Source: the human T2T-CHM13v2.0 reference genome, Homo sapiens
DNA: 64,000 nucleotides
NCBI GenBank assembly: GCA_009914755.4
Contig: CP068257.2
Coordinates: 16,384,001 to 16,448,000 of the forward strand
Reading direction: 5' to 3'
Shown: piece after piece, positions 54,346-64,000 of the stretch
How positions within the stretch are numbered: position 1 is the first letter of the stretch
Layout: every line of letters starts with the position of its first letter
The notes under the pieces: model-generated
The model's input: the letters and a program-made list of their open reading frames with translations, nothing else
The model's database searches: none
Told to the model about the DNA's origin: nothing
Program-made: the position numbers and the translations under genes

Positions 54346-54714
54346 TGGCTTCTTTTTATTTGTTTATCTGCATATATTTAGGAGGTATAAGTGCAGATTT
54401 CTTACTTGCATATATTGTATAGTGGTAAAGCCTGGGCTTTTAGTATACCCATCACCTAAATAGTGAATATTGTACCCAATAGGTATTTATTTTAACCCTC
54501 ATTTCCCTCCAAACCTTTTGTGGACTCCAGTGTCTATTATTCTTCTCTGTATGTCCATGTGTACTGACTGTTTAGCTCCCATTTATAAGTGAGAACATGT
54601 GGTCTTTAACTTTCTGTCTGAGTTATTTCACTTAAGAGAATGACTTCTAGTTCCAACTTTGTTGCTGCAAAAACACATGATTTTATTTTTCTTATGCCAT
54701 AAAACACATGATTT

Positions 54715-55012
54715 TACGGTATATATATACCATAGAATATTATATATATATCACAGATATATACCATAGAATATTATATATATATCACATATATATACCA
54801 TAGAATATTATATATCACACATATACCATAGAATATTATATATATATCACATATATATACCATATTACCATAGAATATATGTATCACACATATATACCAT
54901 AGAATATTATATATATACCATATGTATGTGATAAATATAAAACTTGTATATATACACACATATACCATAGAATATTATATATAATCACATATATATACCA
55001 TATGTATATCAC
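54715..55012. repeat. AT-rich minisatellite (unit of roughly 34 bp, about 8 copies) expanded inside the L1 3-prime UTR
   Basis: Repeating catagaatattatatatatatcacagatatatac-type units. The ORF 54774..54968 reads through it. Confidence 0.85.
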
Positions 55013-55160
55013 ATTTTCTTTATACAATCATCTGTTAATGGACACTTCAGTTGATTCTGTGACTTTACTATTATGAATAGTGCTGTGACAAACCATACAA
55101 GGGCAGGTATCTTTCTGATGTAATAATACCTACTCGTGTATGCTTATCACAGTACTATTC

Positions 55161-55256
55161 ACAATAGCAAAATAATAGAATTTGCTATAATCACAATAGC
55201 AAAATAATAGAATTTGCTATAATCACAATAGCAAAATAATAGAATTTGCTATAATC
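55161..55256. repeat. Tandem repeat, 3 copies of a 32 bp unit, derived from L1 3-prime sequence
   Basis: (acaatagcaaaataatagaatttgctataatc) x3, an in-place triplication of the L1 motif tattcacaatagcaaag.... Confidence 0.9.
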
Positions 55257-60729: not shown

Positions 60730-61012
60730 ATTGCTAATTATTTTAAAGTTGTTTTATAAATTCATTTCTTTTTTCTGTCTTTTTGTCTTTGTGGTTTGAT
60801 GAAATTCTATCTTATTGGCATTTGATTCTTTTCCTTCTTTGTGTGATTGTATTATGAATATTGTGAGTTTTATATTTTCATGTGTTTTTATGATGGTGAA
60901 TAGCAACCTTTCATTTCCATGTTTAAGACGCCTCTGAGCATTTCTTCTAGGTCTGGTCTAGTGCTGACAAATTCCTTCAGCATTTGTTGGTATGGGAAAG
61001 ACTTTATTTCAT

Positions 61013-61710
61013 TTATGAAGCTTTATTTGGCAAGATACGCAATTCTTGGTGGACAGTTTTTACTTCCAACAATTTGAAAATGTCATTCCATTCTCTTCTA
61101 GCCTGGAGGTTTTCTGCTAAAAAGTCCACTGTTAGTCTGATGGGATTTCCTTTATAGGTGACTATATGCTTTTCTCTTTTTAATTTTAAAAATCTTTTAT
61201 TCACTTTGACTTTAGACATTTCAAATATAGTATGCTGTGGTGAATTCCTTTTTGAATGTATTTGACTGGGGATTGGTGGGCCTTCTATGTCTGGATTTCT
61301 GACTCTCTTGCAAGACATGGGAAGTTTTCATTGATTATTTTCTTAAATAGATTTTCTGAGCTTTTTATTCTCTCTTTCCCCTAGGGAATATCAATAATTT
61401 GTAACTCTGATTGTTTTATGTGATTCCAGATGTCTTGAAGACTTTGTTCTTTTTTTTTTTTTTTTTTTTTTTTTTGCCTGCTTGGATTAGTTTTAAAAAA
61501 ACTGTCTTTAAGTTCTGAGATTATTTCTTCTTCTTGCTCTGGTCTATAATTAAAGCTTTTGAATGTCTTTTGTATTTCTTTCAATGAATTTATTTCCAGA
61601 ATTTCTGCTTTTGTTTTCCTAAAGTTATCTATCTTCTTGGTAAATTTCTTACTTATATTCTGAATTGATTTTCTGATTTCTTTGTATTGGTTTTCAGATT
61701 TCTCTTGCAT
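61013..61710 (-). pseudogene. L1 ORF1p remnant, split into two ORFs by frame disruption, with an internal A28 tract
   Basis: The minus-strand ORF 61013..61318 translates to ...HIVTYKGNPIRLTVDFLAENLQARREWNDIFKLLEVKTVHQELRILPNKAS, the ORF1p C-terminal RRM/CTD region. ORF 61381..61710 is coiled-coil-like (…EILEINSLKEIQKTFKSFNYRPEQEEEIISELKDSFFK…). The T28 at 61441-61468 encodes a KKKKKKKKK run. Confidence 0.8.
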
Positions 61711-61999
61711 CTGATTGAGCTCCTTTTAAATCAATATTTTAAATTTTTATCTGGCATTTCAAGGAATTCTTTTTAAACGGAATATGTTGCTAAATAATCA
61801 TTGTAGTCCTTTGGTAGTGTCATATTTCTCTTTTTTTCATGTTTTCTGTATTCTTCCATTGATATCTGTGCATCTGGTATAGCAGTTACAAGTTTTAATT
61901 GTAGGGCAGAATTTTTTCCTGAAAATGTACATATGTTGTTGATTCAGTAGTATACTTTGGCTTTAATTTTGTGTGACTTATGATAGTATAATCTTTGTA

Positions 62000-64000
62000 T
62001 GACTACTTTGGTTGTACACAGGGTCAGTGGTATCTGTAATTTCTTCAGTGGTTTAGGGTACAGTTATTAGATGAGGTTGTGGTGAAGTTTTTCTGGGAAC
62101 TTTATCACCAACTGACCCAGTCTTTTGGCCCCAGTGGTGGAAGCAGTTGGGCAAATGTGTCTGTTTTTAGGCCCCAGAGCAGCAACCACTAACACACTGG
62201 CTCTGGTGTTAGTGGCTTCTGAAGGGCTGATTCTTGGGCCTCCAGATAGCTTGCTTATAAGCCAGTAGTGAAAGTGGTGAGCCAAGTGTGTGGGTGGGTT
62301 CTCAGACCCTTGGGCAGCTGGTGTCATGCAGGTGATTGCAGTGGCAGTGGTTAGAGCAATCCAGTGGGACCCAAGCAGTCCATATGAGTGTTCCTGGTAG
62401 CTGTGATAGGTTGGGTGAGCTAGTCCCCAATCCTACAGTGGCCTATGGCAGAGCACTGGGTATTGTTCTAAGTGTGCTTATGAGAGCTTGGTCTTCCCTG
62501 TCCATCCCCCAGCTGGGTGGTGGCCTCAGCTGCATCACCTTGAACTTGGCCCATGTTAAAATGGTGCCAGTCATGGACTTGTGACCAGAGAGGGCCCCAC
62601 ACTCAGGTGAGCAGCCTGGGTAAGAAGCTGTATAAGCAGTGTGGTCTGCTCAAATATCAGTTTCACAGGAGCCCATAGCAGGGAAATGGATATTGTCTGA
62701 GGTACTCATAGGAGAGTCCACTTTCCTTGCCCCTCTTTGGCTGGGTGGTGGCTGCTGCTGCATCACCCTGAACTCAGTCTGAGGGTGAGGTGCAGCCCAG
62801 TGTTAAACTCTGAAAATGGCACCTTGGGCATGTGACAAGAGATGGAAAGGCCCCTCAAGCAAGCAGGGGGGCACGAAGCTGTGGGGAATGTAGTCCATTT
62901 GCATCTCAGTCTCACGGCAGCCCATTGCAGGGCAGTGAATATTGTCCTAGATATATGCATAGGAGAGCTGGGCCCCCTGTCCTTCCTTGGCTAAGTGGGA
63001 GCTGCAGACATGTCAGCTTAAACTCAGCCTGAGGGTAGAGGGCAGCCTGGAATTAAACTCTCAAAATGACACCTCGAGGGGCAGGGATCCTCCCAGGTAA
63101 GCAGTGTGGGAAGAAGTTTTGTGGAATGTGGCCTGCTCACAACTCAGTCTCACAGCAGCCTATTGCAGGGTATTATCCTAGATGTGTTTAGGAGGGCCTG
63201 TGTGTTAATCCATTCTCCTACTACTACAAAGACATACCTGAGACTGGGTAGTTTATGGAGAAAAGAGGTTTAATTGACTCATAGTTTTGCAGGCTGTACA
63301 GGAGGCTTGGCTGCAGAGGCCTCAGGAAACTTAGAATCATGGCAGAAGGGGAAGAGGAAGGAGGCACGATCTTCACATGATGGAGCAGGAGAGAGAGGAC
63401 AAGCGAAGGGGGAAGTGCTATACACTTTAAACCAGATCTTATGAGAACTCACTCACTATCATGAGAACAGTAAGGGGTATGTTCACCCCCAGGATCCAGT
63501 CACCTACCAGGCCCCTCCTCCAACAGTGATGATTACAATTTATCATGAGATTTGGGCAGTGACACGAGCCAAACCATATCAGCCTGGTTTCCCTGAGGAC
63601 CGGAGAGGGTGAGGTCTCTCCTAGGCATGTAGTATGGGCAAGAAGATGTGGGAAGTGCAGTCTTCTCATGTCTCAGTCTCAACAGCAGCTCATATCAGGG
63701 CAGCAGGGTCACTTCCAGGGGTGTGTGAGAGTCTCACTCTCCCTCGTTGGAGCAGTGCAGTGGTCACAGCCATGTCTGTAGATCCTGATATCTAGCCTTT
63801 CAAAATTGCACCCTGCTGAGGCTGCTCTAGGTCTGGGTGCCCATGGGATTCTCTGTGGGCTCCCTTTCTGGAGCAACATCTGTGTGCAATCTTTAGGCAA
63901 CACCATGTGTCAGACCCAGTGGGTCAAGGGTTTTTCTTGTACCCAAGATCATAAAAGCCAAGCCCTGTGGTTTTCTCTCTTACTGTTTCCCTGCATCTAG
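62000..64000. repeat. Tandem array of roughly 225 to 250 bp monomers (at least 5 copies) forming the L1 5-prime UTR, interrupted by a solo LTR
   Basis: The anchor motif recurs at 62433 (ctacagtggcctatggcagagcactggg), 62658 (cagtttcacaggagcccatagcaggg), 62908 (cagtctcacggcagcccattgcaggg), 63145 (cagtctcacagcagcctattgcaggg) and 63669 (cagtctcaacagcagctcatatcaggg). Each unit also contains ...ttggctgggtggtgg.. / ..ctgcatcaccctgaactcagtctgagggtgaggtgcagcccag.. blocks. The ORFs 62067..63906 in this interval are non-coding. Confidence 0.8.
63201..63581 (-). mobile_element. MaLR THE1/MST-family solo LTR with a perfect 5 bp TSD, inserted into the L1 5-prime UTR monomer array
   Basis: tgtgttaatccattctcctactactacaaagacatacctgagactgggtagtttatggagaaaagaggtttaattgactcatagttttgcaggctg...catggcagaaggggaagagg...accagatcttatgagaactcactcactatcatgagaac...ttgggcagtgacacgagccaaaccatatca. 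It is flanked by gcctg (63196-63200) and gcctg (63582-63586). Confidence 0.85.

What the first reader, a model, noticed from the sequence alone, without database searches (positions are those of the whole stretch)
54346..64000. Near-full-length old L1 in antisense orientation acting as a sink for four later insertions
The L1 keeps its 3-prime tip, about 3.9 kb of ORF2-derived sequence, ORF1 and a long 5-prime UTR. An Alu (56811-57114), a 2.3 kb THE1/MST element (57430-59696), a solo THE1/MST LTR (63201-63581) and two minisatellite expansions (54715-55012, 55161-55256) have inserted into it. Because THE1/MST insertions are tens of millions of years old, the host L1 must be older, at least L1PB/L1MA age. 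That kind of layered structure is informative for dating. Full-length old L1s with an intact 5-prime end are uncommon because most copies are 5-prime truncated.
Basis: partly seen in the sequence, partly recalled or inferred. Interest (0 to 1): 0.55.

Follow-up and report, generated by a model that had tools for sequence, protein, structure and literature searches.

The report
Old full-length L1 with nested repeats
This stretch is one ancient, decayed LINE-1 retrotransposon on the minus strand that later took in an Alu, two MaLR-type LTR insertions and some local repeat expansions, which is an ordinary kind of layered junk DNA in a primate genome.

Summary
The finding is real and ordinary. A single decayed L1 lies on the minus strand. 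Its ORF2 and ORF1 pieces are collinear with human ORF2p and ORF1p, and Pfam finds the endonuclease, RT and both ORF1 domains. An external contig that overlaps the window end at 99.8% identity shows the L1 is full length. A 12-bp target-site duplication (TGGCTTCTTTTT) flanks it at 54346-54357 and 214-225 bp beyond the window end.

Corrections:
- Only about 3.15 kb of ORF2 survives, not 3.9 kb. About 650 bp (aa ~341-559) and the last ~95 bp of the 3' LTR are missing, which fits one later deletion.
- The two minisatellites are expansions of L1 sequence in place, not insertions.
- "Sink" claims too much.

LTR-LTR divergence (K2P 0.25) puts the MaLR insertion at roughly 55-60 Myr. The Alu is S-type and younger. 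The 2-kb 5' UTR contains about three full and two partial tandem units of ~240 nt. The exact L1 subfamily (L1PB/L1MA grade) could not be assigned without Dfam. Nothing here is novel.

The parts
54346..54357 (.). Left copy of the L1 target-site duplication, TGGCTTCTTTTT. The right copy lies at window-equivalent 64214-64225, outside the window.
   Evidence: Exact 12-mer shared by both ends. A match of 12 or more bases occurred in 6 of 20000 random window pairs and 2 of 20000 shuffles.
54358..54714 (-). L1 3' end: degenerate A-rich tail, about 220 nt of 3' UTR, and the last codons of ORF2.
   Evidence: Matches other L1 3' fragments in the window. About 81% identical to a recalled old-L1 3' end (from memory).
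54715..55012 (.). AT-rich minisatellite with a 34-nt period and about 8 copies. It expanded in place from about 30 nt of L1 sequence.
   Evidence: TRF. Only about 30 nt of reference L1 corresponds to window 54671-54988.
55013..56810 (-). L1 ORF2 C-terminal part, aa ~661-1227, much decayed with stops and frameshifts.
   Evidence: tblastn HSPs for aa 1197-1227, 889-1177, 757-886 and 661-753. RVT_1 match.
55140..55256 (.). Short inverted copy of neighbouring L1 sequence (55140-55171), followed by a perfect 32-nt x 3.1 tandem repeat (55159-55256).
   Evidence: TRF shows 100% matches. Segment 55140-55171 matches a reference L1 fragment in minus orientation, where 55085-55010 matches it in plus orientation.
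56811..57114 (+). Dimeric Alu of S type with an A tail. Its target-site duplication is AAGAG(T)GGTGAAAGTGG at 56794-56810 and 57113-57128.
   Evidence: Two Metazoa_SRP matches. Junctions read directly. 11.3% diverged from a recalled AluSx consensus, against 15.4% from AluY and 17.7% from AluJo.
57129..57429 (-). L1 ORF2, aa ~560-659 (RT palm region).
   Evidence: tblastn HSPs for aa 554-644 and 646-659.
57430..57815 (+). Complete 5' LTR of the MaLR-type element, with TG...CA ends.
   Evidence: Direct repeats. Alignment with the 3' LTR, the solo LTR and two other LTRs in the window.
57816..59398 (+). Internal region of the MaLR-type element, 1.58 kb with no long ORF, starting with a primer-binding-site-like TGGTGCC.
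   Evidence: Sequence read directly. Fragments match other MaLR internal pieces at 51476-51586 and 52741-52793.
59399..59696 (+). 3' LTR of the MaLR-type element, missing its last ~95 bp.
   Evidence: Alignment. K2P distance to the 5' LTR is 0.25.
59697..60729 (-). L1 ORF2 N-terminal part, aa 1 to ~340 (endonuclease and linker), carrying a (TG)18 microsatellite at 60334-60369. ORF2 aa ~341-559 is deleted at the 59696/59697 junction.
   Evidence: tblastn. Exo_endo_phos match, E = 2e-12. The deletion measures about 654 bp against intact L1s L002 and L004.
60873..61841 (-). L1 ORF1, decayed, with a T26 run at 61450-61475 that reads as an A run on the L1 strand.
   Evidence: tblastn covers ORF1p aa 52-338. 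Transposase_22 and Tnp_22_dsRBD matches, E = 2e-19 and 3e-20. The start codon position (61823-61841) is inferred.
61842..63200 (-). L1 5' UTR, proximal part: a tether of about 490 nt (61842-62327) and tandem units u4 (partial), u3, u2 and u1 of 230-249 nt (62328-63183), plus the last 17 nt of u0 (63184-63200).
   Evidence: Self-alignments with E as low as 2e-26. Alignment of the units shows 57-65% pairwise identity among u1-u3.
63201..63581 (-). Solo MaLR-type LTR with a perfect 5-bp target-site duplication, GCCTG, at 63196-63200 and 63582-63586.
   Evidence: Inverted-repeat matches to the other LTRs. Alignment and junctions.
63587..64000 (-). L1 5' UTR, distal part: the short unit u0 and the leader. 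The element continues 213 bp past the window end to window-equivalent 64213.
   Evidence: L001 is 99.77% identical to window 61443-64000 and extends beyond it. Right copy of the target-site duplication.

Best explanation
A full-length L1, originally about 7.1 kb, inserted on the minus strand by target-primed reverse transcription. It had a ~2-kb 5' UTR containing about three full and two partial tandem units of ~240 nt, then ORF1, ORF2 and a short 3' UTR. The insertion went into a T-rich site and left a 12-bp target-site duplication. The element then decayed as neutral DNA.

Later events, in inferred order:
1. Two MaLR-type (MST/THE1-like) LTR retrotransposons integrated. One, on the plus strand, entered ORF2 near codon 560. 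The other, on the minus strand, entered the 5' UTR and collapsed to a solo LTR by LTR-LTR recombination, keeping its 5-bp duplication.
2. One deletion of about 750 bp removed the end of the 3' LTR, its flanking duplication and ORF2 codons ~341-559.
3. An S-type Alu was inserted, using L1 machinery supplied in trans, at an AAT/AAGAG site in ORF2.
4. Replication slippage expanded two short L1 segments into minisatellites, and also produced a (TG)18 run and a T26 run.

The structure has no function of its own. It is a dated stack of neutral insertions.
For: - L1 identity and collinearity come from tblastn with PDB-validated ORF1p and ORF2p and from Pfam matches to Exo_endo_phos, RVT_1, Transposase_22 and Tnp_22_dsRBD.
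- A single insertion unit is shown by the 12-bp duplication at both outer ends, found through contig L001, which overlaps the window at 99.77% identity.
- Both halves of the L1 behave alike against reference L1s.
- The deletion is about 654 bp by comparison with intact L1s, and the 3' LTR is truncated.
- MaLR structure: LTR pair, TG...CA ends, 1.58-kb internal part, solo LTR with a GCCTG duplication.
- LTR-LTR K2P is 0.25.
- Alu: SRP matches, duplication, closest to AluSx.
- Minisatellites derive from L1 sequence.
- Tandem 5' UTR units.
Against: - The right-hand duplication and the last 213 bp of the L1 come from a metagenome contig that I take to be human DNA, not from the window itself.
- No second copy of this 5' UTR was found.
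- Its interior matches none of the published consensus hairpin snippets available for L1PB1-3, L1MA1-3 and L1PA15/16. That the 2 kb upstream of ORF1 is the family's own 5' UTR therefore rests on the duplication and on a weak collinear match of nt 52-86 to L1PB2/3 positions 40-75 (z = 3.7).
- The order of the deletion relative to the other events is inferred.
- The absolute ages depend on an assumed rate of 2.2e-9 per site per year.
- The Alu, old-L1 and MST/THE1 consensus sequences used were recalled from memory.
Confidence: 0.9

Rival explanations
1. The two L1 blocks on either side of the 2.3-kb LTR element are independent L1 insertions that happen to lie in the same orientation. One would be a 5'-truncated copy (54358-57429). 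The other would be a separate element (59697 onward).
For: About 650 bp of ORF2 is missing between them. The 5' block is less similar to reference L1s than the 3' block, 65-73% against 73-83%.
Against: - The blocks are collinear and on the same strand.
- The right-hand block would have to be 3'-truncated, which target-primed reverse transcription does not produce.
- The 12-bp duplication brackets the outer ends of both blocks together.
- Lower conservation of the 5' block is general to L1. Two consensus-like references differ from each other in the same way, 72% against 83-84%.
- The neighbouring 3' LTR is also truncated, so a single deletion explains everything.
Confidence: 0.04
2. The GC-rich 2 kb upstream of ORF1 (61842-64213) is not this L1 family's own 5' UTR. 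It would be foreign sequence carried along, for example a 5' transduction from a transcript that started upstream of the source element, or a chimera with another repeat.
For: No other copy of it was recovered. Its interior matches no available subfamily snippet. Similarity of its first 180 nt to the 5' end of the neighbouring L1 is not significant.
Against: - It lies inside the duplication-bounded unit.
- Its nt 52-86 align at the collinear place with L1PB2/3 consensus positions 40-75 (z = 3.7).
- Long 5' UTRs are normal in this age class. The L1PB3 consensus has hairpins out to position ~2400 before ORF1.
- The snippet coverage was partial, and L1PB4, L1MA4/5 and L1PA17 were not in the stored file.
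Confidence: 0.06
3. The missing ORF2 segment and LTR end were lost during integration of the LTR element, as a target-site deletion or an aberrant integration, rather than by a later deletion.
For: The break lies exactly at the junction between the LTR element and the L1, and no 5-bp duplication can be found for this element.
Against: Integrase-mediated insertion normally keeps complete LTR ends and a 5-bp duplication, as the solo LTR 3.5 kb away shows. A truncated LTR end points to loss after integration. The sequence alone cannot decide between the two.
Confidence: 0.15

Closest known systems
Old primate-era LINE-1 families (L1PB / L1MA grade; Smit et al. 1995 and Khan et al. 2006 classification)
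   Same: Order is 5' UTR, ORF1 (RBD-like and dsRBD-like domains), ORF2 (APE-type endonuclease, then RT), short 3' UTR and A-rich end, with a 12-bp duplication at a T-rich target. The ORF1 N-terminal segment is 79% identical to the L1PB2 consensus hairpin at 1707-1756. A long 5' UTR (~2 kb) is also seen in L1PB3.
   Different: The exact subfamily is not assigned. The interior of the 5' UTR matched none of the available snippets from L1PB1-3, L1MA1-3 and L1PA15/16. This copy has also lost ORF2 codons ~341-559.
ERVL-MaLR non-autonomous LTR retrotransposons (MST / THE1 families)
   Same: LTRs of about 380 bp with TG...CA ends, an internal part of about 1.6 kb without pol, a 5-bp duplication, and frequent solo LTRs. 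The three LTRs inside the L1 share a 16-nt block and a TTTCCTGAGGC motif that I recall as MST-like. Two other LTRs in the window lack these and look THE1-like.
   Different: The 3' LTR of the 2.3-kb copy is truncated by about 95 bp and its flanking duplication is lost. The MST-versus-THE1 call rests on memory, not on a library.
AluS (Sx-like) SINE
   Same: Dimeric 7SL-derived structure, A-rich linker, poly(A) tail and a 16-17-bp duplication at an AAT/AAGAG site. It carries the AluS diagnostic segment GGATCACCTGAGGTCAGGAGTTC.
   Different: Nothing unusual. Divergence is 11.3% overall and 4.7% outside CpG sites.
Monomeric L1 5' UTRs of mouse and some other mammals (PMC9022269)
   Same: Tandem units of about 200-250 nt upstream of a non-repeated tether and ORF1.
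   Different: The units here share no demonstrated sequence relationship with mouse monomers. There are only about three full and two partial units, 57-65% identical to each other, and promoter activity was not tested. [quoted passage not shown]

Membership tests
LINE-1 (L1) retrotransposon | ORF1 with the L1 RBD-like and dsRBD-like domains | tested here: met
   Pfam Transposase_22 (E = 1.7e-19) and Tnp_22_dsRBD (E = 2.6e-20), both above the curated cut-offs. tblastn covers ORF1p aa 52-338.
LINE-1 (L1) retrotransposon | ORF2 with an N-terminal APE-type endonuclease followed by a reverse transcriptase, collinear on one strand | tested here: met
   Exo_endo_phos at 47.7 bits and RVT_1 at 30.7 bits, with RVT_1 profile positions 36-145 only. 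Collinear minus-strand HSPs cover ORF2p aa 1-326 and 554-1227. Aa ~341-559 is deleted.
LINE-1 (L1) retrotransposon | A-rich 3' end and a variable-length target-site duplication at a T-rich, endonuclease-type target | tested here: met
   The 12-bp duplication reads AAAAAGAAGCCA on the L1 strand. Chance is about 1-3 in 10,000. The A tail itself has decayed to AAACAAAT.
Full-length L1 (complete 5' end) | The element starts at position 1 of its family consensus | tested here: inconclusive
   The duplication marks the 5' boundary. Nt 52-86 align with L1PB2/3 consensus positions 40-75 at a collinear place, but only at z = 3.7. No full consensus was available.
Specific subfamily (L1PB1-4, L1MA1-5, L1PA15-17) | Best match of the 5' UTR and 3' end to that subfamily's consensus | not testable with these tools
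   No Dfam or Repbase library was available. Partial hairpin snippets from PMC5135761 argue against an L1MA1-3-type and an L1PB1-type 5' UTR. A single snippet each from L1PA15A, L1PA15B and L1PA16 also failed to match. The ORF1 segment fits L1PB2 better than L1PB1. L1PB4, L1MA4/5 and L1PA17 were not in the stored file.
ERVL-MaLR (MST/THE1) LTR retrotransposon | Two direct LTRs with TG...CA ends around an internal region of about 1.6 kb that lacks pol | tested here: met
   LTRs at 57430-57815 and 59399-59696, K2P 0.25. The internal part is 1583 bp. The 3' LTR is truncated.
ERVL-MaLR (MST/THE1) LTR retrotransposon | 5-bp target-site duplication | tested here: met
   Met for the solo LTR, with GCCTG on both sides. 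It cannot be tested for the 2.3-kb copy because its right junction is deleted.
ERVL-MaLR (MST/THE1) LTR retrotransposon | Sequence match to the MST or THE1 consensus | not testable with these tools
   There is only similarity (67-74%) to other LTR copies of the same superfamily in the window, plus my recollection of the consensus.
Alu SINE | Two 7SL-derived arms, an A-rich linker, a poly(A) tail and a flanking duplication | tested here: met
   Two Metazoa_SRP matches, below the gathering score as expected for an Alu. An internal 135-nt repeat (family D8). Tail and duplication read directly.
Monomeric L1 promoter (mouse-type) | Tandem 5' UTR units that each carry promoter activity | not tested
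   Tandem units of 230-249 nt are present. Promoter activity cannot be tested by computation, and no homology to mouse monomers was sought.

The most novel reading that the evidence does not exclude
The ~2-kb 5' UTR of this L1, with its ~240-nt tandem units, could be a 5' UTR type not yet described for an early-primate L1 lineage. Monomer-like organisation is usually credited to rodents and a few other mammals rather than primates. I could not match its interior to any subfamily snippet available to me, and I found no second copy.
Probability: 0.05. Interest if true: 0.3.

Novelty: already known. Interest (0 to 1): 0.08.

Why it matters
It matters little beyond annotation. Nested repeats like this give a relative time order (L1, then MaLR, then Alu) and one absolute anchor from LTR-LTR divergence, roughly 55-60 Myr at 2.2e-9 per site per year. 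That is routine material for dating repeats. The locus could serve as a teaching example of a full-length old L1 whose boundaries are proved by its target-site duplication. It also shows how a later deletion can mimic two separate L1 fragments. It opens no new question.

Tried and rejected
- **Rfam at gathering thresholds.** The whole window gave no match. Alu shows up only below the SRP threshold.
- **Exact-protein look-ups.** Two ORFs near the window end were not on record. A third returned contig L001.
- **Metagenome scan with the conceptual ORF1 protein**. It returned 19 L1 loci, all only 64-73% identical over long alignments and none sharing the 5' UTR. They confirmed the ORF2 deletion but could not be used to build a subfamily consensus.
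- **Subfamily assignment from published consensus hairpin snippets** (PMC5135761, supplement 5).
  - These showed that the neighbouring L1 outside the window is L1MA-type.
  - They showed that this L1 does not have an L1MA1-3-type or L1PB1-type 5' UTR.
  - Eighteen k-mers from this element gave no hits.
  - The stored file lacks L1PB4, L1MA4/5 and L1PA17.
- **Khan et al. 2006** (PMC1356131) is not held in the library.
- **A palindrome or inverted duplication with the head-to-head L1 beyond the window.** Rejected, because the two share only 68% identity in ORF2 and have unrelated 5' UTRs.
- **Homology between the 5' termini of the two L1s.** Not significant.
- **Different ages for the two L1 halves.** Rejected after region-by-region comparison.
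- **The large protein-database search for further copies of a 5' UTR ORF.** I did not run it. Its cost is out of proportion to an ordinary finding, and RepeatMasker would answer the question directly.

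
Full report
**What is in the sequence**

The region is AT-rich from 54.3 to 62 kb and GC-richer from 62 to 64 kb. I recalled the human L1 ORF2p and ORF1p sequences and first checked them against solved structures. ORF2p matched 8sxt chain A over residues 1-1275 at 2930 bits. ORF1p matched 2yko over residues 106-335.

tblastn of these proteins against the window gave only minus-strand matches in the region, in strict order:

| Protein segment | Window position |
|---|---|
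| ORF2p aa 1197-1227 | 55092-55000 |
| ORF2p aa 889-1177 | 56122-55262 |
| ORF2p aa 757-886 | 56523-56134 |
| ORF2p aa 661-753 | 56813-56532 |
| ORF2p aa 646-659 | 57174-57133 |
| ORF2p aa 554-644 | 57449-57177 |
| ORF2p aa 211-326 | 60089-59742 |
| ORF2p aa 1-214 | 60729-60079 |
| ORF1p aa 52-338 | 61686-60873 |

All reading frames are broken by stops and frameshifts. Pfam scans of the stitched translations found Exo_endo_phos, RVT_1 (profile positions 36-145 only), Transposase_22 and Tnp_22_dsRBD, all above their curated cut-offs.

**The interruptions**

- **Alu, 56811-57114.** Both arms match the metazoan SRP RNA model, with E = 4e-16 and 4e-12. These scores are below the gathering score, as expected for an Alu. 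It is 72-85% identical to at least eight other Alus in the window. It ends in an A run and is flanked by AAGAG(T)GGTGAAAGTGG on both sides. Against consensus sequences that I recalled from memory, it is closest to AluSx: 11.3% divergence overall and 4.7% outside CpG sites, compared with 15.4% for AluY and 17.7% for AluJo.
- **LTR element, 57430-59696.** It has direct repeats at both ends. The 5' LTR is complete, from TGATATG to CTAATACA. It is followed by a primer-binding-site-like TGGTGCC and a 1.58-kb internal part.
- **Solo LTR, 63201-63581.** It is in the opposite orientation and has a perfect 5-bp duplication, GCCTG.
- **LTR type.** All three LTRs share a 16-nt block and a TTTCCTGAGGC motif. 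Two other LTRs of the same superfamily in the window (19095-19445 and 53553-53871) lack these. From memory, this makes the three inside the L1 MST-like and the other two THE1-like. I could not test that against a library.
- **Tandem arrays.** TRF confirms both.

First, ORF2p aa ~341-559 has no counterpart. Comparison with more intact L1 copies fetched from metagenome contigs shows 783 bp in them where this element has 129 bp, so about 654 bp is missing. The break is exactly at 59696/59697. There the 3' LTR also stops about 95 bp short of its end, and no 5-bp duplication is left. One deletion of about 750 bp across that junction explains all three facts. The surviving ORF2 is therefore about 3.15 kb, not 3.9 kb.

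Second, the minisatellites are not insertions. The 34-nt array replaces about 30 nt of L1 sequence and is built from it. The perfect 32-nt x 3.1 array sits next to a short inverted copy of the neighbouring L1 sequence. A (TG)18 run in the endonuclease region and a T26 run in ORF1 are further local expansions.

**Is it one element, and is it full length?**

The window ends inside the 5' region, so the 5' end cannot be seen there. An exact-protein look-up of an 86-codon ORF in the 5' region returned a 12-kb contig from a JGI metagenome, L001. L001 is 99.77% identical to window 61443-64000 and runs 8.3 kb further. I take it to be human DNA in that sample.

In L001, 214 bp past the window end, the 12-mer TGGCTTCTTTTT occurs. 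The same 12-mer lies at 54346-54357, immediately outside the L1 3' end. A shared word this long between two 40-bp windows occurred in 6 of 20000 random pairs and 2 of 20000 shuffles. Read on the L1 strand, the duplication is AAAAAGAAGCCA. It begins at a TTTTT/G site on the opposite strand, which fits cleavage by the L1 endonuclease (established knowledge of the TTTT/A preference).

The unit 54358-64213 is therefore one retrotransposition event. It spans 9.86 kb now and was about 7.1 kb as inserted.

The rival idea, two independent L1 fragments, is further weakened in two ways:
- The right-hand block would have to be 3'-truncated.
- The lower similarity of the 5' block to reference L1s is a general property of that part of L1. 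Two consensus-like references differ from each other by the same margin.

**The 5' UTR**

With the solo LTR removed, about 1986 nt lie upstream of the likely ORF1 start. The layout is:
- a leader of about 500 nt;
- a short unit (u0, 145 nt);
- three full units of 238, 249 and 230 nt;
- a partial unit (u4);
- a tether of about 490 nt.

The three full units are 57-65% identical to each other. Units that were identical at insertion would now be about 69% identical after ~17% decay in each, so the units were already somewhat diverged in the source element (inference).

I tried to name the subfamily using consensus hairpin snippets published for the Khan et al. subfamilies (PMC5135761, supplement 5):
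- The ORF1 N-terminal segment fits the L1PB2 snippet (37 of 47 positions, z = 8.8) better than the L1PB1 snippet.
- Nt 52-86 align at a collinear place with L1PB2/3 positions 40-75 (z = 3.7).
- The interior of the 5' UTR matches nothing from L1PB1-3, L1MA1-3 or L1PA15/16. Eighteen k-mers gave no hit.
- L1PB4, L1MA4/5 and L1PA17 are missing from the stored part of that file.

A sequence that I recalled as an old (L1MA-like) L1 is 82-83% identical to the last two thirds of ORF2 and about 81% identical to the 3' UTR. That is a lead, not a test. My best statement is 'L1PB/L1MA grade, subfamily unresolved'.

**Ages**

| Layer | Measure | Value |
|---|---|---|
| MaLR LTRs | K2P between the two LTRs | 0.25 (0.24 without CpG), about 0.125 per LTR |
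| Alu | non-CpG divergence from recalled AluSx | 4.7% |
| L1 | divergence from recalled old-L1 sequence | ≤ 17-18% (upper bound) |

At 2.2e-9 substitutions per site per year (an assumed rate), the MaLR insertion is roughly 55-60 Myr old. The L1 must be older than both MaLR insertions because they sit inside it. The upper bound on its own decay agrees with that. The predicted order L1 > MaLR > Alu therefore holds as far as it can be tested here.

**Assessment**

- The 'sink' wording has no support. Three transposon insertions in about 6.5 kb of old neutral DNA is in line with the rest of the window.
- Full-length old L1s are a small fraction of copies but number in the thousands. One study used 6622 in 27 subfamilies (PMC5135761). 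Another counted 9548 L1s longer than 5 kb in one genome (PMC10883270).
- Every component is a member of a well-known repeat class and the arrangement is commonplace.
- The only mildly unusual point is the tandem-unit 5' UTR that I could not match to a named subfamily. Monomer-type 5' UTRs are described for rodents and a few other mammals (PMC9022269). The most likely reason for the missing match is that the right consensus was not available to me.

Noticed in passing
L001:1-6150 (window-equivalent 66178-72327, beyond the window end): A second L1 lies on the plus strand, head-to-head with the one studied and 1.96 kb from it. It appears to start at its true 5' end. Its nt 100-155 match the published L1MA1/2/3 consensus hairpin (positions 95-154) with z of about 28. 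ORF1 lies at about 68085-68768 and ORF2 starts at 69261. An Alu is inserted at about 70243-70558. The two L1s are only 68% identical in ORF2 and have unrelated 5' UTRs, so this is not an inverted duplication.
   Followed up: partly
window 55140-55256: The 32-nt x 3.1 tandem repeat is 100% identical between copies, so it is young and possibly length-polymorphic. It abuts a short inverted copy of the adjacent L1 sequence. This suggests a small hairpin or template-switch rearrangement seeded the array.
   Followed up: partly
window 63587-63714 and 63184-63200 (5' UTR unit u0): The first tandem unit of the 5' UTR is about 95 nt shorter than the next three. The alignment gap falls at the point where the solo LTR is inserted, even though the LTR has a perfect 5-bp duplication. 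This may be coincidence or an older deletion. It is unexplained.
   Followed up: no
window 51476-53871 and 19095-19445: There are further MaLR pieces: LTRs at 19095-19445 and 53553-53871 (both minus strand) and internal fragments at 51476-51586 and 52741-52793. These LTRs carry an AATCCCCA(T/C) block and lack the 16-nt block shared by the three LTRs inside the L1. They belong to a different subfamily, THE1-like by my recollection.
   Followed up: no
window 26504-26782 (minus) and 33522-33977 (plus): Two short L1 3'-end fragments (ORF2p aa ~1110-1267) lie elsewhere in the window. I used them as references for the 3' part of the studied L1.
   Followed up: partly
window 2371-2656, 3799-4111, 35548-35848, 37652-38158, 43562-43876, 45156-45289, 46527-46824: At least eight further Alu copies are present, including an inverted pair at 37652-37836 and 37868-38158. 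The window is generally Alu-rich.
   Followed up: no
window 60334-60369 and 61450-61475: A (TG)18 microsatellite lies inside the endonuclease coding region. A T26 run, which reads as A26 on the L1 strand, lies inside ORF1 where the ancestral sequence was already A-rich. Both are perfect, so both are probably recent expansions.
   Followed up: no
L001 (JGI metagenome 3300032031, contig Ga0326364_1090553): A 12-kb contig in an environmental or host-associated metagenome assembly is 99.77% identical to this primate locus, with 5 mismatches and 1 gap in 2558 bp. It is host or human DNA contamination in that data set.
   Followed up: no
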